Part shown: one piece after another, positions 19,879 to 62,575 of the stretch
How positions within the stretch are numbered: the stretch's first letter is position 1
Layout: each line of letters opens with the position of its first letter
Assembly (NCBI GenBank): GCA_046318675.1
Contig: JBKCUA010000013.1
Coordinates: forward strand, 109,042 to 173,041
Origin: Holosporales bacterium
GTDB taxonomy: Bacteria; Pseudomonadota; Alphaproteobacteria; JAJTHO01
Direction of reading: 5' to 3'
DNA length: 64,000 bases
The notes under the pieces: model-generated
Told to the model about the DNA's origin: nothing
What the model saw: the letters and a program-made list of their open reading frames with translations, nothing else
Database searches by the model: none
Translations under genes and position numbers: made by a program

Positions 19879-19881
19879 ACA

Positions 19882-33876: not shown

Positions 33877-33937
33877 GGTTGCCAGCTTTAACGTATTGCG
33901 CTATGAAAAAAAGCATTTTCTTGTGGGGGAAAATCTT

Positions 33938-34600
33938 ATGAGCCATACTATTATTACGATTGCCCAGCAAAAAGGCGGTGCCGGGAAAACAACATTAGCC
34001 GTTCATCTGGCCACTACCTGGTGCCTCCAGGGCAAGAATGTTGCTCTGGTGGATATTGATCCGCAGGGTAGCTTAACGCGCTGGTATGATGTTCGCAAAA
34101 CCACTTATGGGAACACGGCACTACAACCAGAAGTTCGCACCGTCACCGGGTGGCGATTATCCAACGAGGTTTCTCGTCTTGCTGAGTCCCATGATATTGT
34201 CATTATTGACTCCCCCCCCCATACACAATCAGAGGCAAAAAGTGCCATTCGTTCCGCAACGGCGGTGATTATGCCGGTGCAGCCCAGCCCGATGGATTTA
34301 TGGGCAACGGAACCTACTTTACGTCTGTGCCGCGATGAAAAAGTACCGGCATTAGTGGTTCTCAACCGCGTCCCCGCCCGGACACTACTAACCGAACAGA
34401 TTCGGACTAAATTAATTGATGAATTAAACGCAAAGATCGCGAACACTCAACTGGGTAATCGGGTTCAACTGGCCAGCACTCTGCTCAAGGGTCGGGGTAT
34501 TGGGGAACTTGCCCCGCGCACCCCAGCGGCCGAGGAAATTGAAGAGTTAGCAACAGAAGTCTTTCGTTTTTCAAAAAACAAGGTTCCCGAACCCGCATAA
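33938..34600 (+). CDS. orphan ParA/MinD-family ATPase
   Basis: Deviant Walker [11 protein letters not shown]; likely start [10 protein letters not shown] at 33938; no adjacent ParB. Confidence 0.7.
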
Positions 34601-36474
34601 TGATGTCCTTATCTTTTGATGTGTTGGTCATTGGCGGTGGCCACGCCGGATGCGAAGCAGCAGCGGCGGCGGCGCGGACTGGTGCGCGCACAGCCCTGCT
34701 TACCCTCGATCCAACCAATATTGGCGAGATGTCTTGTAACCCGGCCATTGGCGGAATTGGTAAAGGGCACTTGGTTGCGGAAATAGATGCCTTGGACGGC
34801 GTGATGGCCAAAGCCGCCGACAGAGCCGGTATTCAATTTCGGCTTCTAAACCGCAGCCGCGGTGCGGCAGTACAAGGAAACCGGGCACAAATCGATCGCA
34901 AGCTGTACCGCCGGGCGATGCAGGGTATTTTGAAGCAACAAGAGAATCTTACGATACTCAAGGGCGAAGCGGCCGATTTCGTACTGGACGCACAAAGCCA
35001 CATTGCCGGGGTAGAAACCACCGATGGCCGCATCATTAAGACTGGTGCTGTCGTGCTAACCACCGGAACATTCCTCGGCGGCATCATTCACCAAGGGGAA
35101 AAACAATGGCCTGCCGGACGGTATGGCGAGCAAGCAGTGGTAAAGTTAAGCCAACGGTTGCGCGGCCTAGGTCTGTCCATAGGCCGCCTAAAGACAGGAA
35201 CCCCGGCGCGACTGTTTGCCGGAAGCATTCACTGGAACCGCTTGCAACGTCAAGAAGGCGATAGTAATCCGCGGCCATTTTCTGCATTAACCAAAACACT
35301 GATAACAAAGCAAGTTCCCTGCTATATCACCCGCACCACCCCACAAACACACGCGATTATTGCCGCCAACAAGCACCGATCCCCGGTATATTCTGGACAG
35401 ATAAATTCGGTGGGACCAAGGTATTGCCCCTCCATTGAGGATAAAGTCACCCGCTTTGCCGATCGTGATGGACACCAGATTTTTCTTGAGCCTGAAGGAC
35501 TGGACGATCCTCTAATTTACCCCAACGGGATTTCCACCGCTTTACCCATAGAAGTGCAAGACGCCTTCCTGCGAACAATTCCGGGTCTTGAGGATGTGCG
35601 CGTGCACCGATACGCTTACGCCATTGAGTATGATTTTCTTGATCCGCGCCAGTTATGGCCGACACTGGAGTCCAAAGCTATTCCCGGTTTGTTCTGCGCT
35701 GGACAAATCAATGGTACTACTGGATATGAAGAAGCTGCCGCACAGGGTTTGGCGGCAGGCCTCAACGCCGCGCGCAAGGCCGGTGGCTTGAGCGGTATTA
35801 CTTTCAACCGTGAGACAAGTTATATCGGTGTTCTCATTGACGATCTGGTGCACAAAGGAACGGAAGAACCCTACCGAATGTTTACCGCACGGGCGGAAAA
35901 TCGCCTGCATTTGCGCGCCGATAATGCAGCAGAACGCTTAACAACACTTGGGCTGGAAACCGGCCTTATCAATAAGGAGCGCGCTGTGTTTCATGCAAAG
36001 CAGCAAGAAACACTAACGCTATTAAAAAAAGCCGCGCTTGAGCTGGCTTGGACACCTATGCAGTTGGCCAAAATGAACATAACGGTAAGTGCCGATGGCC
36101 GTCGGCGAACATTGCTGGAATTAATAGCAAAAAGTCATGTCGCGATAGAGCAAGCTCGTGCGCTGTGCCCGGCTTGGGTCAATGCGGACATCTTGCTGTT
36201 AGAGCGGCTTCAAGCATCGGCGTACTACGGGATAGAACAAGAACGTCTTGCTCTAGAAACAGGGCAATTGGGTGATGGCGGACTATTGCTACCTGCGGAT
36301 TTGGATTATGCTGGTATTTCCGGTCTTTCTAATGAGGAGCGAGGAAAACTCACCTTAGTACGTCCAGCAACCCTAGCAGCAGCAGGGCGTATTCCTGGTG
36401 TGACCCCAGCAGGGGTATTATGCTTGCTGCGTCATGTGCGTATTGAAGCAAAGAAAAGCAGGGTAGCGGCATGA
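34600..36474 (+). CDS. mnmG: tRNA uridine-5-carboxymethylaminomethyl modification enzyme MnmG (GidA)
   Basis: 624 aa; FAD-binding [12 protein letters not shown] and conserved MnmG blocks. Confidence 0.95.
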
Positions 36475-37046
36475 ATTTACAATATTACGATGCTTGTTGG
36501 GATGATCACAAAATAGTATCCGCATCCACCCCCAATGCCTGCCGCGAAGGATTTGCAAAATTGTTGCAACTGGGCGTGACCAGTATCCGATCCGGCGGGA
36601 AAATTGTTCTATTTGGCAACGGCGGCAGCGCGGCGGATGCCCAACACCTTGCTACAGAACTAACCGTACGATTTGGTAAAAATCGCCCGCCAATTCCGGC
36701 ATTAGCACTAACTACAGATACATCAGCACTCACGGCAATTGGTAATGATTTTGATTTCTCGATGCTTTTTGCCCGGCAAGTAGAGGCATTAGTAAGCCCT
36801 GCTGATTTAGTTATTGGAATCAGCACCTCCGGCAACAGCACCAACGTCATTAATGGCCTTGAAGCCGCAAAAACTAAAGGTGCTTTTGTCGCTGCGTTCA
36901 GTGGTGGCAGCGGCGGTTTATTATCAGGACTTGTTGATCCGCTTTTGTGTGTGCCCAGCACCAATACAGCCAGGATTCAGGAAATGCATATTACCCTAGG
37001 TCAAATTTTTTGCGGTGCGCTGGAACAAAACCTTGGATACGTCTAG
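36471..37046 (+). CDS. SIS-domain phosphoheptose isomerase-like protein (GmhA/DiaA-like)
   Basis: 191 aa; [11 protein letters not shown] and ISTSGNS SIS-domain motifs. Confidence 0.65.
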
Positions 37047-37593
37047 AATAAACCTTTATCGCCGGGAACTGGAGTCTTGGGCATCTAAAACCGCCCTTAT
37101 TTCAAAAAATCAGCGACAACATATCGATGATCAAATTGCCGACAGCGCAGCGCTGATTCCGTGGCTACATGGCACACAGTTACGAATTGCCGATGTGGGC
37201 AGTGGCAATGGCCTGCCAGGGGTGGTGTTAGCCTGCGCCTTGCCGAGGAACCACTACACGTTTATTGAGAGCAACCATAAAAAAGCGGCTTTTCTACAAC
37301 ATCTTACTCAAAAACTTTCCCTACCAGTGACGGTGCGTTGTGCTAGAGTGGAAAGCCTGCCCCCGTTGGATGTGGATTATTTCACTGCCAAGGCATTTGC
37401 GCCATTGCCGCGACTACTGGAGCTGCTGGATACCATTGCGCCAGAGAACCGACGATTGCTCCTTCTCAAAGGAAAAAACATTGACACAGAGATAGCAGAA
37501 GCGAGGAGACAGTGGACTTTTTCTTCTCTAGAGGTTACAGCCACAGCGACGGGGTCTTTTATCGTAGCTATCAGGGGGTGGAAACGTGGTTGA
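37015..37593 (+). CDS. rsmG: 16S rRNA (guanine527-N7)-methyltransferase RsmG (GidB)
   Basis: 192 aa; SAM motif DVGSGNGLPG; position after mnmG. Confidence 0.8.
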   Translation: MRWNKTLDTSRINLYRRELESWASKTALISKNQRQHIDDQIADSAALIPWLHGTQLRIADVGSGNGLPGVVLACALPRNHYTFIESNHKKAAFLQHLTQKLSLPVTVRCARVESLPPLDVDYFTAKAFAPLPRLLELLDTIAPENRRLLLLKGKNIDTEIAEARRQWTFSSLEVTATATGSFIVAIRGWKRG

Positions 37594-37627
37594 AGTGTTG
37601 CAAGGTAGCGCACATGACGTTGAGCCG

Positions 37628-38443
37628 ATGCTAAAGCCTGAGCGTCGACCCCGTATCATTGCCCTTGCCAACCAAAAAGGTGGGGTGGGGAAAACCACAA
37701 CAGCAGTAAACCTGGCCACGGCACTTGCAGCGATTAAACGCAAAGTATTGCTTATTGATCTTGATCCTCAGGGAAATGCCAGTACCGGTTTCGGTCTCGC
37801 CGATAAAAAACAAATTACTAAGGGTATTTATCAGGCATTGTTAGGCGAGACATCGTTATCAGATGTTATTTTACCTACCCGTATTCCCGGATTGGACGTG
37901 GTGCCCGCTACTGCCGACCTCATGGGAGCTGAGCTAGAGCTAGTGGACGTTGCGGATCGGGAAAAAAAGCTGCGCCAAACATTTGGCAATCTTGATCGGT
38001 ACTATGATTTTATTTTTATTGATTGTCCGCCTGCGTTGGGGTTGCTCACTCTCAATGCTCTAGTAGCGGCCAACGGTGTTTTAGTACCATTGCAATGCGA
38101 GTATTACGCCCTTGAGGGGCTGAGTGGCCTTGTTAAAACTTTAGATCGCGTCCGCCAAGCCTACAATAGAGAGCTTATCATTCAAGGTATTGTCCTAACA
38201 ATGTTCGATCGCCGCAATCGGTTATGTGAGGGCGTAGCCGAAGATGTACGCGGCTTTTTTGGCGATAAAGTTTATAAAATTGCTATTCCCCGCAACGTCC
38301 GGGTATCCGAAGCCCCTTCCCACGGGGTGCCTGTTATGCTCTACGATCCACGGTGCCCTGGGGCGCGTGCTTATATGGAACTAGCCAGTGAATTTTTACA
38401 GCGTGAAAAAGCCCGTGTTGTTATGGAGACGCCTGTATCATGA
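37628..38443 (+). CDS. parA: chromosome-partitioning ATPase ParA
   Basis: Deviant Walker A NQKGGVGKTTT; upstream of parB; ORF begins 37586 but conserved core starts near 37628. Confidence 0.9.
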   Translation: MLKPERRPRIIALANQKGGVGKTTTAVNLATALAAIKRKVLLIDLDPQGNASTGFGLADKKQITKGIYQALLGETSLSDVILPTRIPGLDVVPATADLMGAELELVDVADREKKLRQTFGNLDRYYDFIFIDCPPALGLLTLNALVAANGVLVPLQCEYYALEGLSGLVKTLDRVRQAYNRELIIQGIVLTMFDRRNRLCEGVAEDVRGFFGDKVYKIAIPRNVRVSEAPSHGVPVMLYDPRCPGARAYMELASEFLQREKARVVMETPVS

Positions 38444-39378
38444 CATCCGTTGTTACCCCTTCCACTTTAACAGGGAAAAAAGCCGGGCTTGGTCGGGGAT
38501 TGTCCGCATTATTTGCCCCAACAGGGGAGACTCAAGAAACACAAGAAAGCGTGTTGCAGTTGCCCATGCGCCAAGTGCGCCCCAACACCCAACAACCGCG
38601 GCGGCATTTTGATGAAACGGCTTTAACCGAATTAGCCGATTCCATTCGCACCCACGGAGTGCTGCAACCCATTATCGTCCGCAAAGTTGCAGATGCGTAT
38701 GAAATTATCGCCGGGGAACGCCGCTGGCGCGCAACAGGCAAAGCGGGACTAGAAACGATTCCCGCTATCGTACGAACAGCAGACGATCGCGAAGCACTAG
38801 AACTAGCACTACTAGAAAATTTACAGCGTGAAGACCTTAACCCCTTGGAAGAAGCAGAATGCTATCAGCAATTGCTCAAGGCGGGATTATACGATCACGC
38901 AGGTTTGGCCCAACGGCTAGGGCTGAGCCGCAGTTATGTGTCCAACCAAGTGCGCCTGCTCAATCTTGCCCCCGCAACCCGCGCCATGCTAGCCGCAGGC
39001 CGCATTGGCCCCGCCCATGCGCGTCTTATTCTCTCACTTCCGGCAGATCAGCATGACGATCTCGCAGAGCGCATTGAAAAAGAACATCTTACTGTACGCC
39101 AAGTAGAAGTATTATTGCGATTTGGTGATACGATACCTGAGCCTGATGTAAGCGAAAACAATGATACTAAATCAGCATCTCAAACTTTCCAGCGTCGCTT
39201 GCCTGACCCCGCTTTTACAAAATATATCAATATTTTGCAGCAACGCTGGCACGCCCCAGTGCGCCTACGTCGGGTGCAGGAAAGTGGCGTAGAAGTCCGC
39301 GTATGCTTTAAAACCGAAGCAGAATTTCATGCATTTCTGGAAACAGTGCCCACCGCAACAATTTCCCAAAAGAAATGA
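38440..39378 (+). CDS. parB: chromosome-partitioning protein ParB
   Basis: 312 aa; ParB box GERRWRA, HTH region; coupled to parA. Confidence 0.9.
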   Translation: MTSVVTPSTLTGKKAGLGRGLSALFAPTGETQETQESVLQLPMRQVRPNTQQPRRHFDETALTELADSIRTHGVLQPIIVRKVADAYEIIAGERRWRATGKAGLETIPAIVRTADDREALELALLENLQREDLNPLEEAECYQQLLKAGLYDHAGLAQRLGLSRSYVSNQVRLLNLAPATRAMLAAGRIGPAHARLILSLPADQHDDLAERIEKEHLTVRQVEVLLRFGDTIPEPDVSENNDTKSASQTFQRRLPDPAFTKYINILQQRWHAPVRLRRVQESGVEVRVCFKTEAEFHAFLETVPTATISQKK

Positions 39379-40144: not shown

Positions 40145-40602
40145 ACGGGATGTTCTAACGCCGATAGAGCTGGGCTACTGGCAAACATCCACCCAGTAAA
40201 GCGACGGATATTTTCGTAACTTGGTTTCTGCTCATCAATTTCAATAAAGGCCGCACTATCGGGAACTTCTTCATCCACAGTATTTTGGCAAGCTCGCACG
40301 GAAAGTCTTAATGTACCAAATCGCACCACCTTATCCACACCAGCCTCAAATCTACTAACTCTTGCTGTTATTTTATCCAAACCTTGGAGCACAGCAATGC
40401 TATTAGGAGTATATTTCTTCGCTGTCGTACCTACAGCTTGCGGAGGAAGAACAGGATCAAGCCCCCCCTGACTTTCCGGCTCAGTTCCCAAGGGAACACT
40501 CACTGTTTCCTCAATTACAGGTGTTTGTTCTACTCCAATTTGCGCCATAGCAGAGAACTGGATCAATAAGATTGCCAGCCCACAAACAATAGCACGCATC
40601 AA
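40078..40602 (-). CDS. secreted DUF2155-like protein
   Basis: 174 aa with signal peptide; conserved neighbour of the MlaD-like and NDUFA12-like genes in alphaproteobacteria. Confidence 0.5.
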   Translation of the reverse strand: MMRAIVCGLAILLIQFSAMAQIGVEQTPVIEETVSVPLGTEPESQGGLDPVLPPQAVGTTAKKYTPNSIAVLQGLDKITARVSRFEAGVDKVVRFGTLRLSVRACQNTVDEEVPDSAAFIEIDEQKPSYENIRRFTGWMFASSPALSALEHPVYDVWLLGCKNPDTAPSGNIPR

Positions 40603-46403: not shown

Positions 46404-47692
46404 TCTCTTTTCCACGCTGCTATAAAAAATCCGTCCGTTTGATGCTCATGGGGTGTTAATTGTAAGGTGTTATCTTTTGCCTGTAGTGGTTTTGAAAAAT
46501 CCACACGACTAAGTGCTTCAACCATTAAAATTGGTGAAAAATCGGTTTTAATTTCATTAAACCAGGCAACCTGATCATCATTTTCTTCCGCCAGCAATGA
46601 ACAGGTCGCATACCATAATTCACCGCCAGGCTTTACTAATTCAGCAGCTTTTTTAAGAATAGATTTTTGCTTTTTTGATAATTCTTCAAGATCAGTTTTT
46701 GTATAGCGAAATCTCGCATCAGGATTACGTCGCCAAGTACCCGTACCTGTACATGGGGCATCAACCAAAACGCGATCGAACTTTCCGCTGTTATTAGCAC
46801 ACCAGCGCTCTTCCAACATCCGCACGGTAGCATTATGTACCCCTGCTTTACGTAAACGACGCTGAGCCTCCTCCAATCGCTTTGGAGCTATATCAAGAGC
46901 GACCAATCTCCCTTTATTCTCCATGTTAGCAGCTAACGCTAAACTCTTCCCCCCTGCGCCGGCACAAAAATCAAGCACCGCCATTCCTGGTTTTGCCCCT
47001 ACCAAAAGAGCGGCAAGTTGAGCTGCTTCATCCTGAATTTCTGCTTGGCCATTATGCAAAACCGATAAACGATCGAAAGAAAAACGCTCACCTATGCGCA
47101 CACCTAATGGTGAGTATGGCGTTGGTTCCGCCGACAAACCTTCTGCTCGAACTTGATCTAATAATGCCGTTCTGTCACCATGCAATGTATTCGCCCGTAA
47201 ATCAACCAGGGCTTGTTCTTGAAGCGCACCAAGCAATCTTGATAGATCGGCTCCATAACGGTTTTGTAAAGAGGCTATCGCCCAGTCAGGGCATTCACCC
47301 TTCACCGCTACTGGCATACTAGACTCAGCTTCAGTATCAAGACAAAGCTGTTCCAGAGTACACAATTCTATATGTGATAATGGTGCAGGTGCATATCGAT
47401 CCCCACTATAAAAGTTCTTTAATAATAATTGATTTTTACCTTCTACAATAAATTGATAAGAAAGAAGCCCCAAGCGCGGTGTCCAGTGTACACCAACGCG
47501 CATCAGTCGCCACGTTAAACGTACCCGATAACGAAACACACCATACACTAAATAAGCAAGATGTTGCCGATCCTTACTTCCCGCAAAACGATGTTCTCTC
47601 CCCCAATGATGTAGTGCCCTATCGACAGGAACACCGCCGTTAGCAGCAGTAAGAACTTCTAAAGCCGCACTGGCCAATGCTTGGGGGGTCAT
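46400..47692 (-). CDS. rsmB: 16S rRNA m5C methyltransferase, RsmB/Sun (NOL1/NOP2) family
   Basis: 430 aa; SAM motif LDFCAGAGGKS and catalytic DAPCTGTGTWRR. Confidence 0.75.
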   Translation of the reverse strand: MTPQALASAALEVLTAANGGVPVDRALHHWGREHRFAGSKDRQHLAYLVYGVFRYRVRLTWRLMRVGVHWTPRLGLLSYQFIVEGKNQLLLKNFYSGDRYAPAPLSHIELCTLEQLCLDTEAESSMPVAVKGECPDWAIASLQNRYGADLSRLLGALQEQALVDLRANTLHGDRTALLDQVRAEGLSAEPTPYSPLGVRIGERFSFDRLSVLHNGQAEIQDEAAQLAALLVGAKPGMAVLDFCAGAGGKSLALAANMENKGRLVALDIAPKRLEEAQRRLRKAGVHNATVRMLEERWCANNSGKFDRVLVDAPCTGTGTWRRNPDARFRYTKTDLEELSKKQKSILKKAAELVKPGGELWYATCSLLAEENDDQVAWFNEIKTDFSPILMVEALSRVDFSKPLQAKDNTLQLTPHEHQTDGFFIAAWKRD

Positions 47693-48789
47693 GATAACAC
47701 AGCTAAAATATCACTATCGTCCACATCCCTACGTTCCACAGCATCTCCAATTGCATTCAACAAAATAAATGTTTTTTTGCCGCCAATCGTCTTCTTATCA
47801 CTTTCCATCGCCATTAGTAATTCATTTTTATTTAAAGTTAGATCAGGTAATAATTCTTTTAATGTCTTAGGATACTTAAGGCCATTAAGATGTTCTTCAA
47901 TGGCTGTTGCTTGATCAGCTACCAACATACCTAATCTGACCGATAACCGTGCTGCCAACCGAATACCGTATGCCACTGCCTCACCATGAAGAAGTATTTT
48001 ACTATCGTATCCAGCAGCAGCTTCCAACGCGTGACCAAATGTATGACCAAAATTGAGCAATGCTCGAATACCAGTTTCTCGTTCATCTTTACTAACTATT
48101 AGAGCTTTTGCACGACAGCTATAAGTAATAGCTTTTTGTAAAGATTCATTATCACCATCAAGTATTTTTTGAGCATATTTTTGGCACCACTCAAAGAAAG
48201 TGGAATCACTAATAAGACCATATTTAAGAATTTCTGCATAACCAGCACGACGTTCGCGTAAAGGAAGCGTCTTTAAAAAATTGATATCAATAATTACCCT
48301 AACTGGTTGGTAAAAAGTCCCTATCAAATTTTTACCAAAATTACTATTGATGGCTGTTTTTCCACCAACAGAACTATCAACTTGAGCCAAAAGGGTTGTG
48401 GGAATTTGTACAAAAGGTATCCCCCGTAAGGTAATACTAGCCACAAAACCGCCTAAATCCCCAACTACACCACCACCTAAAGCAATAAGAATCGTCTTGC
48501 GATCAATGCGCCATGATATTATTTTTTCAAGAACTTTTTTTAGAGTCGTAAAACTTTTTGCTTTTTCTCCGGCAGGGAGAGTGACAAAAAGTACATTCTT
48601 TTTATCAAGGGATTTTTCAATTGTTTTTTTATATAAAGGAGCAACATTTTTATCACTAAGGACTATAACTTTTTTTGTTATATCTAACCATGGTGCAAGG
48701 TCTTTTTCTAAATGCGATAAAATATCGCTACCAATCATGATATCGTATTGATGTTGTTTTGTTTCTATAGAAATAATACCAAGAGTCAT
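47689..48789 (-). CDS. aroB: 3-dehydroquinate synthase
   Basis: 366 aa; GGGVVGDLGGF NAD-binding motif and metal-binding HTFGHALE. Confidence 0.9.
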   Translation of the reverse strand: MTLGIISIETKQHQYDIMIGSDILSHLEKDLAPWLDITKKVIVLSDKNVAPLYKKTIEKSLDKKNVLFVTLPAGEKAKSFTTLKKVLEKIISWRIDRKTILIALGGGVVGDLGGFVASITLRGIPFVQIPTTLLAQVDSSVGGKTAINSNFGKNLIGTFYQPVRVIIDINFLKTLPLRERRAGYAEILKYGLISDSTFFEWCQKYAQKILDGDNESLQKAITYSCRAKALIVSKDERETGIRALLNFGHTFGHALEAAAGYDSKILLHGEAVAYGIRLAARLSVRLGMLVADQATAIEEHLNGLKYPKTLKELLPDLTLNKNELLMAMESDKKTIGGKKTFILLNAIGDAVERRDVDDSDILAVLS

Positions 48790-49087
48790 TCTTCAATATA
48801 ACAGTTTCATTATAAGAAAAAACTTAATAACACTTTCCTTCTATAATTTTTTTGAAAAATAATGGTAGTAGTAAGTAGTACCCATAAAAACGGGGATAAC
48901 TTTTGAAATTTTTTTATTCACAGAATTTTCCACAACAATTTTTAAAAAAGTATTTTTGAAATCAAAAAACTAAAAATAATCCCCAACTGCTAAAACTTTT
49001 TCATAACAATATTTTTTTATAAGGAACCAGTATAAATAAGGCAAAGACAACGGGAATAGTATTGTTGGTTTTTTAAAATCGATAAGT

Positions 49088-49106
49088 TATCCACAAGTTA
49101 TGCACA
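49088..49106 (+). promoter_or_regulatory. tandem DnaA boxes (TTATCCACA perfect, TTATGCACA 1 mismatch)
   Basis: two direct boxes 10 bp apart in a 320-bp AT-rich intergenic region; further near-matches at 48926-48934 (TTTTCCACA) and 48891-48899 (minus strand). Confidence 0.45.
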
Positions 49107-49109
49107 GTT

Positions 49110-49847
49110 TTAAGGATAGTTATAATTAGCTACAAAAACCTTTAGTAGCGACAATACCACAATCGCTAAAATTGCTATTCCTACAATTATTTGTGCCGGG
49201 ACTATAATAAAAAATATTTGTACTTGTGGCATTAGACGCGACACTATCCCAATGGTAATATTAAATAAAATTCCTAAGATAAGCAGTGGTGCTGCTAATT
49301 GAATTCCGATATGAAAGGCATCGGCAAAAACGCGACTGAGATGATTGCTTGCATCAATAATACTGAATGCGGTTCCAATAGGGAAAGAAATGTAACTTTG
49401 TGCTAAAGCTTTAAAAGTATTATGGTGAAGATCAGTAGTAAAAATTGCCGTTATACCAGCCATAGTTAAAAATACGGAAAAGAGGTTTCCTTGCTGACCT
49501 AGGCTTGGGTTTAACAGTGAAGCATTTGACATTCCAGTTTGAAGACCAATGATGGAGCCCGCGACGTCCAAAGTACTAAGTAAAAATTTAGCCATTAATC
49601 CAAAAAAAACGCCAATTATAATTTCCTGACCAATGTAAATAAATGTCTGTAAACCGCTTTCTGGAACAATAGGAATGGGTGTAAGAGGCCAAAGTACTAA
49701 ACTGAACAGTATAGCAAAAGCTAAGCGCACTTTTCCGGGAACAAACATTTGATCTAAACCGGGCATTAAATAAATAAGGGAGCCGACGCGGCAGAAAGTC
49801 ATTAAAAAGGCAAAAGTTTCCTGCGGAAGAAAGGTTAGCAGGGACAT
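49110..49847 (-). CDS. fliR: flagellar biosynthetic protein FliR
   Basis: 245 aa, 6-8 TM; FliR/SctT-like pattern. Confidence 0.75.
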   Translation of the reverse strand: MSLLTFLPQETFAFLMTFCRVGSLIYLMPGLDQMFVPGKVRLAFAILFSLVLWPLTPIPIVPESGLQTFIYIGQEIIIGVFFGLMAKFLLSTLDVAGSIIGLQTGMSNASLLNPSLGQQGNLFSVFLTMAGITAIFTTDLHHNTFKALAQSYISFPIGTAFSIIDASNHLSRVFADAFHIGIQLAAPLLILGILFNITIGIVSRLMPQVQIFFIIVPAQIIVGIAILAIVVLSLLKVFVANYNYP

Positions 49848-49848
49848 C

Positions 49849-50115
49849 TTAACTTCCTTGAATCATGCGCTGAAAAAGTTCCAGGGTGAATCCCTGTAAA
49901 GTGCTAAACATAAAAGGAAGAAATAATGCTGTTGCGGCAAAGACAGCAATGACTTTTGGAACAAAGGACAGCGTACTTTCCTGTATCTGCGTAAGAGCTT
50001 GAAATAAAGATATTATAAGCCCAACAACAAGAGTAATTATAAGAAGTGGTGCCCCAACTTTTAGGGTTGTCCAGAGTGCTTGCTGGGTAATCTCTAAAAC
50101 ATCACCGAAGTTCAT
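49849..50115 (-). CDS. fliQ: flagellar biosynthetic protein FliQ
   Basis: 88 aa from internal Met; GLIISLFQALTQIQESTLSFVPKVIAVF matches the FliQ/SctS signature. Confidence 0.8.
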   Translation of the reverse strand: MNFGDVLEITQQALWTTLKVGAPLLIITLVVGLIISLFQALTQIQESTLSFVPKVIAVFAATALFLPFMFSTLQGFTLELFQRMIQGS

Positions 50116-50175
50116 AATGTTGGATGTAAAAGTCAATGGTTGATAAATTGTAAACAACAAGCAAAATGTGTACCT

Positions 50176-51096
50176 ATGATAATCATTCTTTTACAGCGTA
50201 TAGCACCCTTATATGTTTATGTTTTATTAGGATTTTTTGCTGGTCGTTTTTTAAAAATAGACAGACAACAAATGGCGCGTTTGGTTATTTATCTGATTGC
50301 ACCGTTGATGTTTTTAGGTTCGGTGAGTATTGCCCCATTAGATATCCGTTATTTGTTATTACCCGTTATTACTTTTGTTTTGGCAATATTTATGAGTGGG
50401 TTAATGTTTTTGTTGGTTGGAAGATTTTATCCGGATGCGCGGCGTTATCTTATTGCTTCAATATCTGGTACTGGAAATACGGGATATTTTGGTGTGCCAG
50501 TCTTTTTGACCTTGGCTGGATCAGAGGCATTGGGTGTGTATATGCTGGCAATGTTGGGGATGACTTTTTTTGAGGCTAGTATAGGTTATTACCTTATCGC
50601 GAGGGGTAACTATTCCGTGCGAGATAGCATGAAGCGGTTGTTAATGCTGCCAACACTTTATGCGGTTGGGTTGGGATTATTGGTTAAGGTGAGTGGCGTG
50701 GCTATTCCTACTTGGATGTTGACGGGTCTTGAGCAAGTACGCGGGGCTTATGTGGTTCTTGGCATGATGTTGGTGGGTGTGGGATTATCAATGGTGCGAC
50801 GACTTCAATTTGATATTGCTTTTAATTTCATCTTGCTATTGATGCGATTTGTTTTTTGGCCAATTTTAGTGATGGGAGTATTAGCTTTAGATTATGTATT
50901 TTTAGGATTTTTTGATTCATTAGCACGCACAGCTCTATGGGTGCTGGCTATTGTACCTTTGGCTGCTAATACTGTTGCGTTTGCAAGTGAAATGAATCTT
51001 CATCCGGAAAAAACAGCTACGGCAGTTGCAATTAGTACCGTGTTGGCAATATTTACCGTTCCACTCGTTGCACAGACATTGTTTCTCTTTTTTTGA
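50176..51096 (+). CDS. AEC-family (auxin efflux carrier-like) transporter
   Basis: about 306-aa polytopic membrane protein with two-fold repeat topology typical of the AEC family; ORF begins 50140. Confidence 0.65.
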   Translation: MIIILLQRIAPLYVYVLLGFFAGRFLKIDRQQMARLVIYLIAPLMFLGSVSIAPLDIRYLLLPVITFVLAIFMSGLMFLLVGRFYPDARRYLIASISGTGNTGYFGVPVFLTLAGSEALGVYMLAMLGMTFFEASIGYYLIARGNYSVRDSMKRLLMLPTLYAVGLGLLVKVSGVAIPTWMLTGLEQVRGAYVVLGMMLVGVGLSMVRRLQFDIAFNFILLLMRFVFWPILVMGVLALDYVFLGFFDSLARTALWVLAIVPLAANTVAFASEMNLHPEKTATAVAISTVLAIFTVPLVAQTLFLFF

Positions 51097-51574
51097 TGGG
51101 ATCAGATACTGAAATTTTTTCACCCCAAGATTCTATAAGTTTTTTTTGTAACCCTACGTTATATTTTATGCCACTTTGGTGATGCCAAATAAGTATAGTT
51201 CTAATAATTTGTGGAGTAACGATGATAATACCCCATCCAACGCCCGCAGCACTAAGAATTCCAAGCCACTCTCTTGCATCGTTGAGAATTTCAAATCCAG
51301 CGGCGAGACTCCACCCTAAAGGAAGAACCCTAATAAGGGTTGGAGCAATGCCAGCAGCATTCATTATAATGACAGATAAGGCTATACGTTTATTGGGATT
51401 TTTATCCCATGACCATGCTACTAGTCCAGGAAGCATACCTATTGTACAAAGAAGAACTCCGGATAAAGAAATTAAAGACATACAAAGAACAATAAGTCCG
51501 TAAAGAAATTTCACTTTTCCAGTCCAAGATTTTTTTAAATTTGGCGCTCTATTGGGGTTATTTTTTATTTTCAT
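51053..51574 (-). CDS. hypothetical 4-TM membrane protein (T4SS-cluster associated)
   Basis: 173 aa, four predicted TM helices; no recognised family; last gene in the minus-strand T4SS transcript direction. Confidence 0.4.
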   Translation of the reverse strand: MKIKNNPNRAPNLKKSWTGKVKFLYGLIVLCMSLISLSGVLLCTIGMLPGLVAWSWDKNPNKRIALSVIIMNAAGIAPTLIRVLPLGWSLAAGFEILNDAREWLGILSAAGVGWGIIIVTPQIIRTILIWHHQSGIKYNVGLQKKLIESWGEKISVSDPIKKRETMSVQRVER

Positions 51575-51578
51575 GAAA

Positions 51579-53621
51579 TCACATCCTTAATAGGAAAAAA
51601 CAAATAGCAGAAAATAGAGCAATAATTGGAGAAACAACGGCGGTTTTCTTAGCCACAAGGGAATTTATATCTTGTAAGGCATACCGATGAAGGTTTATTT
51701 TTTTATCGATTCTCAAGTATTCGTTGCGTGCATTTTTGAATTCAATGGAATCTTTTTGTCGTTCTTGAGGGCTGTCAATAATATCTAAAATTTTTAAGAA
51801 AGAGCCACTTTGTGCAGCTTGGTCAAGATTTTTAGTAATCTGTGCGCGACGTGGTTCACTATTAAAATGATCAAGATTCTGTTGCAAGGTTTTACTAAAC
51901 CATGTTGTTATTTTTGGAAAAGATTTATTTCCGTTTTTTTGATTTATTGAATGGAAAATACGAAGTAATGCAATATGTGGTATCCAAGGTTGGCTCTTAT
52001 CATTTAATTGACGAAAATATTCTTCTTTTAAAAACTTACAGCGGCTGGCAATAAATGCAGTAATATGTCTATCAATAATAGGATTTTTATAATTTAGATC
52101 AGTATATTTATTTAGCATTGCCTCAAGAGCTGGAAGAATATCTATAGATTCAAGGACTATAGTGTCCTCAAGAATAGAACTTAAACAAGCAGCTTGCGGA
52201 TTAAGCTCATAAAAACATCGCTCAAATCCATAACCAAGTCCTTGGTTCATTATAACAGTTTTGAGAAGTTCTAAAATTTTATCAAGGCGATTTTGTTCTT
52301 CGGAAATAGAACTTTGAGCACGTAACCAAGAAGATGCAAGACCATGTCGGATAATGTCTGTACAAAATTGTCGTTTCTGGTTATCAAAAAGTCCGGCAAG
52401 AAATAGACCCCCAAGCCCATTAATATCAATGGCAACACCTTGATAAAACAAGGGTGCTTCAGGGCATAGAGCAATCAGGGCTTTCGCACTGGTAACGCTT
52501 GGGGGTTGGGTTGCTCGTGTGGCAACGGCAAATATTTCATGCAATGAATTGGCTACATCTTCTGCTTCAAGACTTCGTCGAAGCCATATGTTCATTTTAT
52601 TATCTTGTAGAATTTTTAATGCACTATCCTTGGTTTTTCCTAGTGCATAAACAAGTGATGGAATATTGATATAGTTTATATTATTAAATATTAATGCCCG
52701 ACCAGCTTTTTTCGGAAATGTGGGCACTTTTGGCGATATGCTTTGTCCACCTAACCATTGGGATACTTGATCGATTGTCCATCGGTTTTCTGGATTATCA
52801 TGTAAGGTGCCTTTAAGAAAATCCATCATTTCTTTAGAAAATCGTTTATCGCCGATAAAAGTAGCTAAAGTACCGTTCGTTGTTTTTTTAAAAAGAAGAT
52901 TATCCAGCGTAAGATTTTGTGCGGGATTTTCTCCTTCCAAAAGATGCAAACTAAGTATTCCAAGATTATAAATATCTTCTTGAAATCCGTTGGTACTTTT
53001 TTTATTGGCAGGATCAATAAGCATCATTTCAAGGGGTTCAACGGTAAACGGTATTCTCCAACCAAGATGACCCATGAAGCATTCACCTAAAACAATCGAT
53101 GTTTTTGTATGATCAGAATAAAATATATTACTTGGAGATAAAAATCTGTAAGATAATGAGTTTTTTTGTAATTCGGCAAGTGTATTAATAATCGGACGAA
53201 TAAAAATTTCACGAACATTGAGTTCTGTCCACGGGGTTATTTTTTGTTTGCCGCCCTCAGGAAAGACAGAAGATCCAGGTAAGGGCGCAACAGCGAATAA
53301 AAGACTACCAAAACCAGCACCCAGTGTTTTTTTTTCATAGGCTTCAGGACAAAGAATCGTTGCGTTTGACGTTTTTTTTAGTAGTTCGAGCATATCATAG
53401 CGCGGTGACATCATTTTATCGGCCATGAAAGCAACCATTAAACGTTCTTCATTTAGTAAATCTGTTGCTTTAAAAGCAAAAACCTGACCAAGCGAAAGAT
53501 CATGCATACATTCATGAATAATATCGCCCATATGGACAATGTAACGCTCGCTCAGAATAATTTGGCTTTTTTTACGGCCATCGGTGCCGTCCTGAGGCTG
53601 CGGTTCTTTAATTAAAGTCAC
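51579..53621 (-). CDS. membrane-anchored protein with degenerate Hanks-type protein-kinase-like (pseudokinase) domain
   Basis: 680 aa; Gly-rich-loop-like LGAGFGSLLFAV, degenerate catalytic loop YRFLSPSNIF (cf. HRDLKPSNIL; catalytic Asp and Lys absent), subdomain IX-like DIYNLGILSLHLLEGENP, subdomain XI-like LHDNPENRWTIDQV; C-terminal TM helix. Confidence 0.5.
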   Translation of the reverse strand: MTLIKEPQPQDGTDGRKKSQIILSERYIVHMGDIIHECMHDLSLGQVFAFKATDLLNEERLMVAFMADKMMSPRYDMLELLKKTSNATILCPEAYEKKTLGAGFGSLLFAVAPLPGSSVFPEGGKQKITPWTELNVREIFIRPIINTLAELQKNSLSYRFLSPSNIFYSDHTKTSIVLGECFMGHLGWRIPFTVEPLEMMLIDPANKKSTNGFQEDIYNLGILSLHLLEGENPAQNLTLDNLLFKKTTNGTLATFIGDKRFSKEMMDFLKGTLHDNPENRWTIDQVSQWLGGQSISPKVPTFPKKAGRALIFNNINYINIPSLVYALGKTKDSALKILQDNKMNIWLRRSLEAEDVANSLHEIFAVATRATQPPSVTSAKALIALCPEAPLFYQGVAIDINGLGGLFLAGLFDNQKRQFCTDIIRHGLASSWLRAQSSISEEQNRLDKILELLKTVIMNQGLGYGFERCFYELNPQAACLSSILEDTIVLESIDILPALEAMLNKYTDLNYKNPIIDRHITAFIASRCKFLKEEYFRQLNDKSQPWIPHIALLRIFHSINQKNGNKSFPKITTWFSKTLQQNLDHFNSEPRRAQITKNLDQAAQSGSFLKILDIIDSPQERQKDSIEFKNARNEYLRIDKKINLHRYALQDINSLVAKKTAVVSPIIALFSAICFFLLRM

Positions 53622-53706
53622 GCCTATATTTACCTTGTTGGAATAAAATGGAATCCAAAGATAAAGATAGTATAGAAGTACTAATGTTTCGTAATCGCTT
53701 CGATTT

Positions 53707-55755
53707 TTAAGATGAAGCTAGTTCTAAACTAGCTTTCATGGCTTTTTTAAGCCTTTCTTGCTCTTGTTCGGCAAGGTACTCTGTTTTTCGCCGTTCCATC
53801 ATAAAAGCAGGCATAGGGGGAGCGGCTTTATATTTACCGCCTTTGCTTGGATCCACAAGGGTTTTGAGGACGGGATGTTTGTAATATGCTGGGGTATCAC
53901 ACAAAATAGGCCGAGAAAGATACCCTTGAAAAAGGACATAATGCTTTCCTTTGGGAATGGTCATAAAATCTTCGGGGCGGAGCAAGGGTTGTCCCTGCAG
54001 GCTACGCTGAACGTTGGCGGCAAACGGGTTTGTCTCTCGGCTTACCCCCATGGTGCGGGAACGAGAGGCCGTTTCCACGGTGCGTTGACCCACCATTTCT
54101 GAAAAGCGTTTCGCAGTAGTCTCATTGTTCTGGGCAAGAACAACCTTGGCGGCAGTGGTGGAAATAACCGTTTCTACCTCGTCCTTGCCGTACACGGCGG
54201 TAATCTGCCCTAAATCTTGGCCAATCATCAAAAAGCTTACTTTTTGACCCCGACCAACAGCGGGTCCATCAATCAATGCGCGCAGTTTGGGCATTTGTGG
54301 AAATTCATCAAGAACGAACAATGCAGCAAAAGGACCAACCTTGCGACCATCAGCAGTGGATGACTTTGGTGGGTGGGCAACTAGCCAGGCGGAGAGAGCT
54401 TCGACCAGCAGCCCAGTGATAACGCCCAGAGCTTTGGCATCTTGCTGGGTTACGCAGACATAGATGCTCATGGGTTTATATTCCCCAGTTACCGGATCGC
54501 GCATCCCTCGTACGTCCATGAAGGAAAAATCGCTTTGACTGGTACGATCGCGGACAGCTTTATTTTTAAACACAACAAGACCCCCGTCCATGGTGGACAT
54601 GATAGAGCCACGTTCTTTATCGGGGGTATTGGCCAAGGCTGTAAGTTCTAAGATGGCACGATTACTATAATTACCCGCACGGCATTCTTTTACGGCATCT
54701 GTGAGCATATCCCGCATAGGATCGGCACTCATGGCTGCCATTGGATTGGTTTTGCGAAGCTGTTCAACTTTTTCTTGGGCGGAAATTTGTGCTTCTGTCA
54801 TCCAATCCAGTAGCATAGGAATGCTTGGTTCTTTGCCTTGCCAATTTAGAGGTATATTATTCCAGTTCCCTGCTTCTATTTTTGAGCATAAATAGTGAAT
54901 GAATCCGGCCAGCACGGCTCGTCCTCGTTTTGTCCAGTGGGGATCGGCACTGCCCTTTGGTTCTTCGATAAGAATATTGACCAAGCGATCAACGTACAAA
55001 TCGCGCTGTGCCCCTGGGGGAGGCATAGAAGACGGAGAAAGAGCATTCCATCGTGGATAGAAAATCCCCTTTTCTGGCTGATCAGATGCTGCCCATTCTA
55101 GCTTGAGGCAAAAGCTGTGTTGGCTGCGATAGCCACTTGTAATATCAAAAAGTTCCGGCTTAACGTCATTAATAATCATGGACACGTTATTACAGGTAAG
55201 AATAGTAGGCACGACAATAGCGACGGTTTTACCAGTTCCAGGGGGGGCAACGCACAGGACAGATAAAGTTTCGGGAAGTTTAAGGAATTTACGTTGATAT
55301 TCGCCTAGAACGACAATCCAACCTTTAAGAAGCTGCATTTTGTCAACGTCACGTTTGGTTGCCATTCGGGCATTACCAAAAGTTGTTACCAAAAAGGTGT
55401 AAGGATTGCTTAGCATAAACCCGACAAAAACCACCAAGGTACCGCCCAATGCCGTAACAATCTCAACGGGTAGAAAAATAAACCGCCAATCGTAGGGGTT
55501 TCCGTGGCGAATAGTGGTAATCCAGTTGAGATGCCATTGCCACCAAGCAATAGGATTTTTGGCCATACCAAAATATTGTTCTACTGCCATGACGACTTTT
55601 TGTGAGACACCAAACTTAATAAATGTATATGTTGCTGTAACTAAAGGCACAAAGAAAAAAAAGGCGATAACAGACCCGATAAGCACCTGAAAAAGATATA
55701 GGGTTGCCTGCTTTTGTTCGGCGTAATCTTGGCGGTTAAAGGGGCTTAGAACCAT
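53707..55755 (-). CDS. virD4: type IV secretion coupling protein VirD4/TraG
   Basis: 682 aa; N-terminal TM helices, Walker A PPGTGKTVAIVVPT, TraG/VirD4 family blocks. Confidence 0.9.
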   Translation of the reverse strand: MVLSPFNRQDYAEQKQATLYLFQVLIGSVIAFFFFVPLVTATYTFIKFGVSQKVVMAVEQYFGMAKNPIAWWQWHLNWITTIRHGNPYDWRFIFLPVEIVTALGGTLVVFVGFMLSNPYTFLVTTFGNARMATKRDVDKMQLLKGWIVVLGEYQRKFLKLPETLSVLCVAPPGTGKTVAIVVPTILTCNNVSMIINDVKPELFDITSGYRSQHSFCLKLEWAASDQPEKGIFYPRWNALSPSSMPPPGAQRDLYVDRLVNILIEEPKGSADPHWTKRGRAVLAGFIHYLCSKIEAGNWNNIPLNWQGKEPSIPMLLDWMTEAQISAQEKVEQLRKTNPMAAMSADPMRDMLTDAVKECRAGNYSNRAILELTALANTPDKERGSIMSTMDGGLVVFKNKAVRDRTSQSDFSFMDVRGMRDPVTGEYKPMSIYVCVTQQDAKALGVITGLLVEALSAWLVAHPPKSSTADGRKVGPFAALFVLDEFPQMPKLRALIDGPAVGRGQKVSFLMIGQDLGQITAVYGKDEVETVISTTAAKVVLAQNNETTAKRFSEMVGQRTVETASRSRTMGVSRETNPFAANVQRSLQGQPLLRPEDFMTIPKGKHYVLFQGYLSRPILCDTPAYYKHPVLKTLVDPSKGGKYKAAPPMPAFMMERRKTEYLAEQEQERLKKAMKASLELASS

Positions 55756-56842: not shown

Positions 56843-56846
56843 AAGG

Positions 56847-58556: not shown

Positions 58557-58565
58557 AAATCACTT

Positions 58566-59924: not shown

Positions 59925-59951
59925 TGTTTAATCTCCTATTTTTTCAGGTAA

Positions 59952-62323: not shown

Positions 62324-62337
62324 GAATATTCCTTATT

Positions 62338-62520: not shown

Positions 62521-62575
62521 CCCTTCGCTCCCTTTGTTGTATTAAAGGTTTGGAGTAAGTGTAGGCGTGGGAAGG

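What the first reader, a model, noticed from the sequence alone, without database searches (positions are those of the whole stretch)
48790..49109. AT-rich 320-bp intergenic region with clustered DnaA boxes (candidate oriC or DnaA-controlled promoter)
The region holds one perfect TTATCCACA (49088-49096) and a 1-mismatch TTATGCACA 10 bp downstream in the same orientation. It also holds TTTTCCACA (48926-48934), a 2-mismatch box on the minus strand (48891-48899) and TAATCCCCA (48979-48987). All lie in a strongly AT-rich stretch between fliR and aroB, about 10 kb from the origin-proximal mnmG-rsmG-parAB block. Alphaproteobacterial origins are typically AT-rich intergenic regions with several DnaA boxes located away from dnaA.
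Basis: seen in the sequence. Interest (0 to 1): 0.55.

Follow-up and report, generated by a model that had tools for sequence, protein, structure and literature searches.

The report
Replication origin of a Holosporales bacterium
This 320-bp AT-rich spacer between fliR and aroB is very probably the chromosomal replication origin (oriC) of an uncultured Holosporales-like alphaproteobacterium: a familiar kind of element, but not where alphaproteobacterial origins usually lie and without their usual CtrA control sites.

Summary
The spacer 48790-49109 carries four boxes within one mismatch of TTATCCACA and two more with two mismatches. That is the densest cluster in the 64 kb (0.11 expected from the spacer's own composition, P <= 5e-5). 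It is also the joint most AT-rich spacer (75% A+T). The cumulative G-C minimum of the window falls inside it (49007). Third-codon-position GC skew flips from -0.18 to +0.26 across it whichever strand the genes are on. In a metagenomic relative (AroB 76% identical) with the same fliQ-fliR-spacer-aroB order, all six boxes are kept or improved. Box positions are 91% identical, the rest of the spacer 66%, and four-fold sites about 50%. The skew flips there too. One inverted box is followed by a GC cluster, conserved TAG/TAA repeats (DnaA-trio-like) and an AT-rich block, as in the Bacillus-type basal unwinding system. There are no CtrA, IHF, GANTC or GATC motifs, and no hemE, COG1806, COG1253 or dnaA nearby. 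Verdict: oriC, confidence about 0.85. It is a new member of a known kind and of modest interest. Whole-chromosome skew and function could not be tested.

The parts
48790..49109 (.). Candidate oriC: 320-bp spacer, 75.3% A+T, between the aroB start and the fliR stop
   Evidence: Densest DnaA-box cluster in the window. Cumulative G-C minimum at 49007.
49087..49095 (+). DnaA box TTATCCACA (perfect); upstream member of a tandem pair
   Evidence: Identical in relative L085.
49098..49106 (+). DnaA box TTATGCACA (1 mismatch), 2 nt after the perfect box
   Evidence: CTATCCACA in L085, also 1 mismatch.
48977..48985 (+). Weak DnaA box TAATCCCCA (2 mismatches)
   Evidence: TTATCCCCA (1 mismatch) in L085.
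48926..48934 (+). DnaA box TTTTCCACA (1 mismatch)
   Evidence: Identical in L085.
48914..48922 (+).
   Evidence: TTATACACA (1 mismatch) in L085.
48891..48899 (-). Inverted DnaA box TTATCCCCG (2 mismatches), the only box that faces the aroB side; proposed unwinding-proximal box
   Evidence: TTATCCCCA (1 mismatch) in L085.
48866..48880 (+). Candidate DnaA-trios: TAG TAG TAA G TAG TA on the + strand (5'-TAG-3' = 3'-GAT-5'). A CCC cluster (48881-48883) lies between the trios and the 48891 box, inside a 12-nt spacer (48879-48890).
   Evidence: the only place in 128 kb (both strands) where >=3 in-phase TAG/TAA repeats lie within 16 nt of a box in the required orientation. Thirteen of the 15 bases are invariant in alignment A1; the exceptions are 48880 in L085 and 48871 in one contig-end read, L001. 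The trio definition is taken from PMC8287927 and PMC7561715.
48795..48865 (.). AT-rich block beyond the trios (75-82% A+T): favoured candidate for the DNA unwinding element. It must also hold the aroB promoter/5' leader if aroB has its own promoter.
   Evidence: A+T in 40-bp windows; 20-bp windows lying within 48810-48889 are 75-90% identical to L085, against about 50% at four-fold sites.
48935..48976 (.). Central A/T tract; the stretch 48940-48979 is 90% A+T. Alternative unwinding element or bending spacer.
   Evidence: 48940-48979 is one of the five least stable 40-bp windows of the 64 kb and the least stable in the spacer. Only 65-70% conserved.
47689..48789 (-). aroB (3-dehydroquinate synthase), transcribed away from the spacer
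49110..49847 (-). fliR, which ends at the spacer; fliQ lies upstream of it (49849-50115 as called in public contigs)
34600..39378 (+). mnmG - SIS-domain gene (gmhA/DiaA-like) - rsmG - parA - parB: origin-proximal marker block, 9.4 kb from the spacer

Best explanation
The spacer is the DnaA-dependent chromosomal replication origin (oriC) of an uncultured alphaproteobacterium that NCBI labels 'Holosporales bacterium'.

Shown: six E. coli-type DnaA boxes sit in a 216-bp array within a spacer that is 75% A+T. They form two tandem pairs (49087/49098 and 48914/48926), one single box (48977) and one inverted box (48891). The leading/lagging-strand compositional polarity of the surrounding 64 kb switches at exactly this spacer.

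Inferred mechanism: DnaA-ATP fills the five co-oriented boxes and the inverted box 48891-48899. From that box a DnaA filament extends across a 12-nt spacer ending in a GC cluster. It continues onto the conserved TAG/TAA repeats (48866-48880) of the + strand and opens the adjacent AT-rich block (48795-48865). The order box -> GC cluster -> trios -> AT-rich DNA is that of the Bacillus/Clostridioides basal unwinding system and of E. coli R1/DUE. Forks then leave in both directions. aroB transcription starting in or passing through the unwinding block may assist opening (speculative). No CtrA, CcrM or IHF input is visible in the sequence.
For: 1. Box density. Four boxes with <=1 mismatch and two with 2 mismatches lie in the spacer. 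This is the window maximum and the only multi-box spacer. P <= 5e-5 against the spacer's own composition.

2. Compositional polarity. The cumulative G-C minimum is at 49007, the RY minimum at 48853, the AT maximum at 50166 and the MK maximum at 50058. The G-C slope is -41.8/kb on the left and +38.5/kb on the right. GC3 skew in + strand terms is -0.17 (22 + strand genes) and -0.18 (23 - strand genes) on the left. It is +0.26 (11 - strand genes) and +0.57 (1 + strand gene) on the right. The flip therefore does not come from gene orientation and has origin polarity, minus to plus.

3. Conservation. Relative L085 (AroB 76%, FliR 90%) has the same fliQ-fliR-spacer-aroB order. Its 3.8-kb contig holds 7 boxes with <=1 mismatch, all within about 230 bp at the spacer: six in the spacer and one in the last codons of fliR. 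Box positions are 49/54 identical against 175/266 for the rest of the spacer (Fisher p = 1.4e-4). Four-fold sites of the flanking genes are 48-55% identical. The GC3 skew also flips across the spacer in L085 (-0.30 against +0.23, p = 1.5e-6). Among strain-level assemblies, about nine polymorphic spacer sites were found and none lies in a box.

4. Trio-like module, in the right orientation, unique in the window and conserved (definitions from PMC8287927, PMC7561715).

5. The parAB-rsmG-mnmG block lies 9.4 kb away.

6. The junction is real. It was assembled independently in at least five samples.

7. No RNA family, no RNA structure signal and no coding signal in the spacer, and no similarity to plasmids.
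Against: Only 64 kb is visible, so 49007 is a local skew minimum and not a demonstrated chromosomal one.

Eleven of the 12 genes on the right (fliRQ, a vir-type secretion operon, leuC) would be transcribed head-on to the rightward fork. That is unusual next to an origin, although it amounts to only 3-4 transcription units.

None of the usual alphaproteobacterial origin neighbours is in the window: no hemE, COG1806 or COG1253, and no dnaA.

No CtrA or IHF consensus is present.

The trio run is interrupted by a 1-nt phase slip. The loose published rule (.A.){3,} is met by 25% of all boxes in the window, so only the strict version is informative.

A second cluster of three boxes exists at 40271-40381.

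No DnaA binding, unwinding or replication data exist.
Confidence: 0.85

Rival explanations
1. The cluster is a DnaA-binding regulatory site and not the origin. It would be either a DnaA-controlled promoter for aroB-rsmB or a datA/DARS-like site that titrates or recycles DnaA close to the true origin. The skew flip at the same place would then mark the boundary of an inverted or relocated segment.
For: The spacer lies directly upstream of aroB, and no terminator or strong sigma-70 promoter was detected in it. The 80-nt block next to aroB is the most conserved part. Genes on the right are head-on to the predicted fork. fliQ-fliR has lost its usual flhB neighbour, which suggests a rearrangement at this point. 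A second box cluster in the window shows that this genome holds non-origin clusters.
Against: A coincidence would be needed between the strongest conserved box cluster, the most AT-rich spacer and the exact point of polarity change in four disparity curves. The same flip is seen in a relative. The GC3 skew of the right-hand genes is fully equilibrated to their present orientation. Six boxes spread over 216 bp, together with a trio-like module, go beyond known DnaA-repressed promoters. The boxes furthest from aroB (about 300 bp upstream) are the best matches.
Confidence: 0.08
2. The spacer is a relic or secondary origin. It would be a former oriC, or one of two, whose boxes persist while initiation now takes place mainly at another locus, for example a canonical hemE-linked one outside the window.
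For: The window lacks every canonical alphaproteobacterial origin neighbour. The rest of the genome could not be examined.
Against: The boxes are under present purifying selection (91% against 66% identity; no box polymorphism). The skew polarity changes here with near-symmetric slopes. That pattern would decay or move if forks no longer started here.
Confidence: 0.05
3. The boxes are a chance cluster of A/T-rich 9-mers in an ordinary promoter spacer.
For: TTATCCACA-like words are easier to find in AT-rich DNA. Two of the six boxes have two mismatches.
Against: Simulations with the spacer's own composition give 0.11 boxes where 4 are seen (P <= 5e-5). All boxes are conserved or improved in a relative whose neutral sites are about 50% identical.
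Confidence: 0.02

Closest known systems
Escherichia coli oriC (DUE - R1 ... R2 ... R4)
   Same: Compact size: the box array plus the AT-rich end span about 250-300 bp. The boxes match TTATCCACA. The box next to the AT-rich end reads TGTGGATAA-like on the strand that carries the T/A-rich repeats, and the distal boxes face the other way, as R1 does against R2/R4 (arrangement of E. coli oriC from my own knowledge). The origin is not adjacent to dnaA.
   Different: No GATC sites at all, so no Dam/SeqA-type control. No IHF consensus. No 13-mer repeats. Different flanking genes (fliR/aroB, not gidA/mioC).
Basal unwinding system (BUS) of Bacillus subtilis incC and the Clostridioides difficile oriC2 DnaA-trio (PMC6669920, PMC8287927, PMC7561715)
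   Same: The order is box -> short spacer with a GC cluster -> repeated 3'-[G/A]A[T/A]-5' trios -> AT-rich DNA. The spacer is 12 nt, where 13 nt is the most common length and 16 nt the maximum. The minus strand here, GGGTACTACTTACTACTACC, closely resembles the C. difficile trio sequence CACCTACTACTATTACTACTATGA.
   Different: The trio-proximal site is a single weak box (2 mismatches here, 1 in the relative) and not a tandem pair. The trio phase is broken by one extra base. Function is untested. The origin is not bipartite and not next to dnaA.
Caulobacter crescentus Cori and the hemE-linked origins of Rickettsia, Wolbachia, Ehrlichia and Anaplasma (PMC1914354)
   Same: Alphaproteobacterial host. 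AT-rich spacer of 300-600 bp with several DnaA boxes, away from dnaA and coinciding with a skew shift. parAB lies within about 10 kb, as in Caulobacter (my own knowledge).
   Different: The flanking genes hemE, COG1806 and COG1253 are absent from the window. There is no TTAA-N7-TTAA CtrA site even with one mismatch, no IHF consensus and no GANTC. There are more boxes and they match the consensus better than the 2-5 weak boxes reported for those origins.
E. coli datA / DARS DnaA-box clusters
   Same: Cluster of DnaA boxes in non-coding DNA within about 10 kb of origin-proximal genes.
   Different: Those sites do not coincide with the strand-polarity switch and have no unwinding module. They are defined functionally, in enterobacteria only. 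Here the cluster sits exactly at the switch.

Membership tests
Bacterial DnaA-dependent chromosomal origin (oriC) | Cluster of at least 3-4 DnaA boxes in non-coding DNA | tested here: met
   Four boxes with <=1 mismatch plus two with 2 mismatches in 216 bp; P <= 5e-5. A cluster of four or more boxes is the criterion quoted in PMC1914354.
Bacterial DnaA-dependent chromosomal origin (oriC) | Adjacent AT-rich, easily melted unwinding element | tested here: met
   The spacer is 75.3% A+T, the joint highest among spacers. The stretch 48940-48979 is among the five least stable 40-bp windows of the 64 kb, and 48795-48865 is 75-82% A+T. Actual unwinding was not tested.
Bacterial DnaA-dependent chromosomal origin (oriC) | Coincides with the switch of leading/lagging-strand composition (skew minimum) | tested here: met
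   Met within the 64-kb window: G-C minimum at 49007, and the GC3 skew flips independently of gene strand. The skew also flips in relative L085. The whole chromosome is not available.
Bacterial DnaA-dependent chromosomal origin (oriC) | Binding sites conserved among related genomes | tested here: met
   Box positions 91% identical, rest of spacer 66%, four-fold sites about 50%. No box polymorphism among strains. Only one diverged relative was available.
Bacterial DnaA-dependent chromosomal origin (oriC) | DnaA binding, DnaA-dependent unwinding, autonomous replication or a marker-frequency peak | not testable with these tools
   No reads, protein or experiments are available.
Alphaproteobacterial hemE-linked, CtrA-controlled origin (Cori type) | Flanked by hemE and COG1806 or COG1253 | tested here: not met
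   All ORFs of 244 aa or more were scanned. None is hemE, DUF299 or CNNM/CBS. The flanks are fliR and aroB.
Alphaproteobacterial hemE-linked, CtrA-controlled origin (Cori type) | CtrA sites TTAA-N7-TTAA within the origin | tested here: not met
   None with 0 or 1 mismatch in the spacer of the window or of L085.
Alphaproteobacterial hemE-linked, CtrA-controlled origin (Cori type) | IHF site | tested here: not met
   No WATCAANNNNTTR or WATCARNNNNTTR in either spacer. Consensus scans can miss real IHF sites.
Basal unwinding system (DnaA box + DnaA-trios) | Box with <=2 mismatches, spacer of <=16 nt, and at least 3 trios with a central A on the correct strand (rules of PMC8287927) | tested here: met
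   Box 48891-48899 with TAG TAG TAA at a 16-nt spacer, or TAG/AAG at a 12-nt spacer. The strict TAG/TAA version is unique in the window and its spacing is conserved in L085. The loose rule is unspecific (25% of boxes).
Basal unwinding system (DnaA box + DnaA-trios) | Trios needed for DnaA filament assembly on single-stranded DNA and for strand separation | not testable with these tools
   Needs a strand-separation assay or mutagenesis.
datA/DARS-like DnaA titration or reactivation site | DnaA-box cluster that is not the site of fork initiation | tested here: inconclusive
   The coincidence with the skew switch argues against this. Initiation itself was not observed.

The most novel reading that the evidence does not exclude
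In this deep-branching Holosporales-like lineage the origin has been rebuilt at a new place, which splits the fliQ-fliR-flhB operon. It has lost every alphaproteobacteria-specific control input (CtrA boxes, GANTC/CcrM sites, IHF site, hemE linkage) and works as a 'bare' DnaA-box plus DnaA-trio origin of the Firmicute/E. coli type. The intragenic three-box cluster at 40271-40381 would then serve as a datA-like DnaA sink, taking over part of the lost regulation.
Probability: 0.2. Interest if true: 0.45.

Novelty: new member of a known kind. Interest (0 to 1): 0.3.

Why it matters
The result gives a well-supported origin for a lineage that has no cultured or closed-genome representative in the collections searched. 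The best GTDB match to AroB is 50% identical, and the nearest MnmG outside the clade's own metagenome relatives (91-100%) is 61% identical. This helps to orient and close such metagenome-assembled genomes and to interpret growth-rate (peak-to-trough) estimates from metagenomes. It is also a counter-example to the rule that alphaproteobacterial origins are hemE-linked and carry CtrA sites. And it offers a compact, conserved box-plus-trio module on which the generality of the basal unwinding system could be tested in Alphaproteobacteria. It does not reveal a new kind of element.

Tried and rejected
1. CtrA sites (TTAA-N7-TTAA, 0-1 mismatch), IHF consensus, GANTC and GATC: none in the spacer of the window or of the relative.

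2. parS (TGTTTCACGTGAAACA, <=3 mismatches): none anywhere in the window.

3. RNA element or leader: no Rfam hit at gathering score or at E <= 1, and the RNA fold z-score is +0.73.

4. Hidden small gene: the 30-codon ORF 48841-48933 stays open in the relative. By my manual codon-by-codon reading of alignment A1 it differs by 9 non-synonymous and 2 synonymous codons, so I rejected it as coding.

5. Sigma-70 promoter and terminator scan: nothing in the spacer.

6. Plasmid origin: no similarity to 72,556 plasmids.

7. Origin next to aroB in other lineages: none of the 80 AroB loci from GTDB species genomes, nor the 58% relative L088, has a 300-bp window with >=3 boxes.

8. Origin next to fliR in more distant relatives: those have fliQ-fliR-flhB.

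9. Extending the skew beyond the window failed. LeuC and PBP1A have no exact record, the exact VirB8 occurs only on short contigs, and the DNA of the 129-kb contig could not be served.

10. Both scans of metagenome contigs showed that this collection lacks the organism.

11. Alternative trio candidates to the right of the tandem pairs were examined by eye. Those after 49106 lie in the last fliR codons and meet only the unspecific loose rule. No run of three trios follows 48934.

Full report
WHAT IS THERE. The region 48790-49109 is a 320-bp spacer. It lies between the start codon of aroB (47689-48789, minus strand; TIGR01357 376 bits, cut-off 305) and the stop codon of fliR (49110-49847, minus strand; TIGR01400 169.9 bits, cut-off 168.6).
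- TTATCCACA at 49087-49095
- TTATGCACA at 49098-49106
- TTTTCCACA at 48926-48934
- TAATCCCCA at 48977-48985
- TTATCCCCG on the minus strand at 48891-48899

A further one-mismatch box, TTATTCACA at 48914-48922, was missed. Five boxes point the same way and one is inverted. Two tandem pairs have gaps of 2 and 3 nt.

IS IT MORE THAN CHANCE? The 64-kb window has 28 boxes with at most one mismatch, against 14.2 +/- 3.6 in shuffles. Four of them lie within 193 bp here. No other 300-bp window reaches four, and no other spacer of at least 100 bp has more than one. Twenty thousand shuffles and twenty thousand Markov-1 simulations of the spacer itself give a mean of 0.11 boxes and P(>=4) <= 5e-5, so AT-richness alone does not explain the cluster. 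The spacer is 75.3% A+T, tied for the highest in the window. The stretch 48940-48979 is among the five least stable 40-bp stretches of the 64 kb.

STRAND COMPOSITION. The cumulative G-C curve of the window has its minimum at 49007, inside the spacer. The RY curve has its minimum at 48853, the AT curve its maximum at 50166 and the MK curve its maximum at 50058. The G-C slopes are nearly symmetric, -41.8 per kb on the left and +38.5 per kb on the right.

The decisive control is the skew at third codon positions, expressed on the + strand:
- Left of the spacer: -0.17 for the 22 genes on the + strand and -0.18 for the 23 genes on the - strand.
- Right of the spacer: +0.26 for the 11 genes on the - strand and +0.57 for the single + strand gene.

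The flip is therefore not a by-product of gene orientation. It has the polarity expected at an origin, where G exceeds C on the leading strand.

CONTEXT AND HOST. The window carries mnmG, a SIS-domain gene, rsmG, parA and parB at 34600-39378, which ends 9.4 kb left of the spacer. Ordinary housekeeping genes lie to the left. To the right lie fliR, fliQ, a transporter, two unknown genes and a virB8-B9-B10-B11-virD4 secretion cluster followed by leuC. The window holds no dnaA, hemE, DUF299/COG1806 or CNNM-CBS/COG1253 gene.

The exact FliR sequence is named 'MAG: Holosporales bacterium' by NCBI. No species genome of GTDB has an AroB more than 50% identical. Beyond the clade's own metagenome relatives (91-100%), the nearest MnmG is 61% identical. 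The lineage therefore has no close sequenced relative. The fliR-spacer-aroB junction was assembled independently in at least five samples, so it is not a chimera.

CONSERVATION. Metagenome contigs L085-L087 come from a relative (AroB 76%, FliR 90% identical) with the same order: transporter, fliQ, fliR, spacer, aroB. In the alignment every box is kept or moves closer to the consensus:
- TTATCCACA stays unchanged.
- TTATGCACA becomes CTATCCACA.
- TAATCCCCA becomes TTATCCCCA.
- TTTTCCACA stays unchanged.
- TTATTCACA becomes TTATACACA.
- TTATCCCCG becomes TTATCCCCA.

That 3.8-kb contig has seven boxes with at most one mismatch, all within about 230 bp at the spacer: six in the spacer and one in the last codons of fliR. 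Box positions are 49/54 identical, the rest of the spacer 175/266 (Fisher p = 1.4e-4). Four-fold degenerate sites of aroB, fliR and fliQ are only 48-55% identical. The GC3 skew flips across the spacer in the relative as well (-0.30 against +0.23 in its orientation, p = 1.5e-6), although two genes dominate that signal. Among strain-level assemblies of the window's own species, about nine spacer positions vary and none lies in a box.

A LIKELY UNWINDING MODULE. The most conserved part of the spacer is not the box array but 48810-48890, where 20-bp windows are 75-90% identical. Read on the minus strand, the sequence runs as follows:
- the inverted box TTATCCCCG
- TTTTTAT
- GGG
- TA-CTA-CTT-A-CTA-CTA-C
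- an AT-rich block that reaches aroB

On the + strand the repeats read TAG TAG TAA G TAG TA (48866-48880), which is 3'-GAT-5' type trios. The order box, GC cluster, trios, AT-rich DNA is the order described for the basal unwinding system. The 12-nt spacer fits too: 13 nt is the most common length and 16 nt the maximum (PMC8287927, PMC6669920). The sequence also resembles the C. difficile trio 5'-CACCTACTACTATTACTACTATGA-3' (PMC7561715). I took the required relative orientation of box and trios from the E. coli R1/DUE arrangement, which is my own knowledge.

A strict search asked for a box with at most two mismatches and at least three in-phase TAG/TAA within 16 nt, in the correct orientation. 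It finds this one place in both strands of the window. The published loose rule, (.A.){3,}, is met by 56 of 224 boxes and carries little weight. The repeat run has a 1-nt phase slip. I therefore treat the module as a conserved, well-placed candidate and not as a demonstrated element. The central A/T tract 48935-48976 is the thermodynamically weakest part and is an alternative opening site.

WHAT IT IS NOT. No TTAA-N7-TTAA (0-1 mismatch), IHF consensus, GANTC or GATC occurs in the spacer of either species. The origin therefore fails the defining features of the Caulobacter/Rickettsiales type listed in PMC1914354, namely hemE/COG1806/COG1253 flanks and CtrA and IHF sites. There is no Rfam match even at E <= 1 and no excess RNA structure (z = +0.73). 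The only ORF of note (30 codons) differs from its counterpart in the relative by nine non-synonymous and two synonymous codons in my manual reading of alignment A1. There is no similarity to plasmids. AroB loci of 80 other species and of a 58% relative have no comparable cluster. FliR relatives of about 40% identity have the usual fliQ-fliR-flhB arrangement. The location is therefore specific to this lineage, and the operon appears to have been split at the origin.

WEIGHING. Five independent lines converge on one 320-bp spacer: box density, AT-richness, an orientation-independent polarity switch, selective conservation of the boxes, and proximity of parAB. I put oriC at 0.85.

The main reservations are these:
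- Only 64 kb can be seen.
- Eleven of the 12 genes to the right would be head-on to the fork.
- A second cluster of three boxes exists at 40271-40381.
- Nothing functional was measured.

The best rival is a DnaA-regulated promoter or DnaA-titrating site that happens to sit at a rearrangement boundary. It needs a triple coincidence and is given 0.08. A relic or secondary origin gets 0.05 and chance 0.02.

NOVELTY AND INTEREST. This is a new member of a known kind. It matters for orienting and closing genomes of this uncultured lineage. It is also a counter-example to the hemE/CtrA rule for alphaproteobacterial origins and a possible alphaproteobacterial test case for DnaA-trios. It would not surprise a specialist much. 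Interest 0.3.

Noticed in passing
window 40271-40381: A second cluster of three same-strand DnaA boxes (TCATCCACA, TTATCCACA, TTATCCAAA) lies inside the DUF2155 gene (40078-40602, minus strand). It is 0.9 kb beyond parB and 8.4 kb from the spacer. The boxes overlap the codons for TVDE, GVDK and GLDK. Eighty distant DUF2155 homologues carry 0 or 1 box, so the cluster is not a by-product of the family's sequence. Chance or a datA-like DnaA-binding site; no close relative was available to test conservation.
   Followed up: partly
window 36471-37046: A SIS-domain gene sits between mnmG and rsmG, inside the origin-proximal mnmG-rsmG-parAB block. It matches GmhA (175 and 172 bits) and, more weakly, the DnaA-associating protein DiaA (119 bits), all below the curated cut-offs. 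hldE and a heptosyltransferase elsewhere in the window favour a true GmhA.
   Followed up: no
window 1-64000, especially 13900-21600 and 48000-54000: Base composition is very uneven for one contig: 32-62% G+C per kb, and GC3 of 0.22-0.68 per gene. A high-GC block (dapF, purK, hldE, a glycosyltransferase, radA, pgm) contrasts with the lowest values around the origin spacer. The cause is unknown; it could be acquired genes or regional mutation bias.
   Followed up: no
window 1-64000: No match to the common parS sequence TGTTTCACGTGAAACA, even with three mismatches, although parA and parB are present at 37586-39378.
   Followed up: partly
window 49110-50160; loci L099 and L101: fliQ-fliR here is followed by the origin spacer and aroB. 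In FliR relatives of about 40% identity it is followed by flhB. The flagellar export operon therefore appears split at the origin in this lineage.
   Followed up: partly
window 49110-63988: Eleven of the 12 genes right of the spacer are on the minus strand, head-on to the predicted rightward fork. They are fliR, fliQ, two unknown genes including a 680-aa protein with a faint kinase match, virD4, virB11, virB10, an unknown 452-aa gene, virB9, virB8 and leuC. Their third-position skew nevertheless matches their present position.
   Followed up: partly
window 48886-48909 and 48947-48948 (ends of L001, L002, L004, L095, L096): Five independent metagenome contigs end inside the spacer. Two of them end at the same base, next to the 90% A+T tract. 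The cause is probably low coverage or strain variation in very AT-rich DNA.
   Followed up: no
window 33896-34600: An additional small ParA-family ATPase (234 aa; NF041546, 211 bits) lies immediately upstream of mnmG, separate from the parA-parB pair.
   Followed up: no
window 26271-26816: A TrcR-type cell-cycle regulator gene (PF06242, 186 bits) is present. At least part of the alphaproteobacterial cell-cycle circuitry therefore exists, although the origin shows no CtrA sites.
   Followed up: no
locus L088 10001-12427: In the 58%-identical AroB relative, aroK-aroB is followed by a CNNM-CBS-CorC (COG1253-type) gene, the marker that flanks the origin in Wolbachia and Ehrlichia. mnmG-rsmG-parAB lies about 5 kb further on. 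No DnaA-box cluster was found in those 21 kb.
   Followed up: partly
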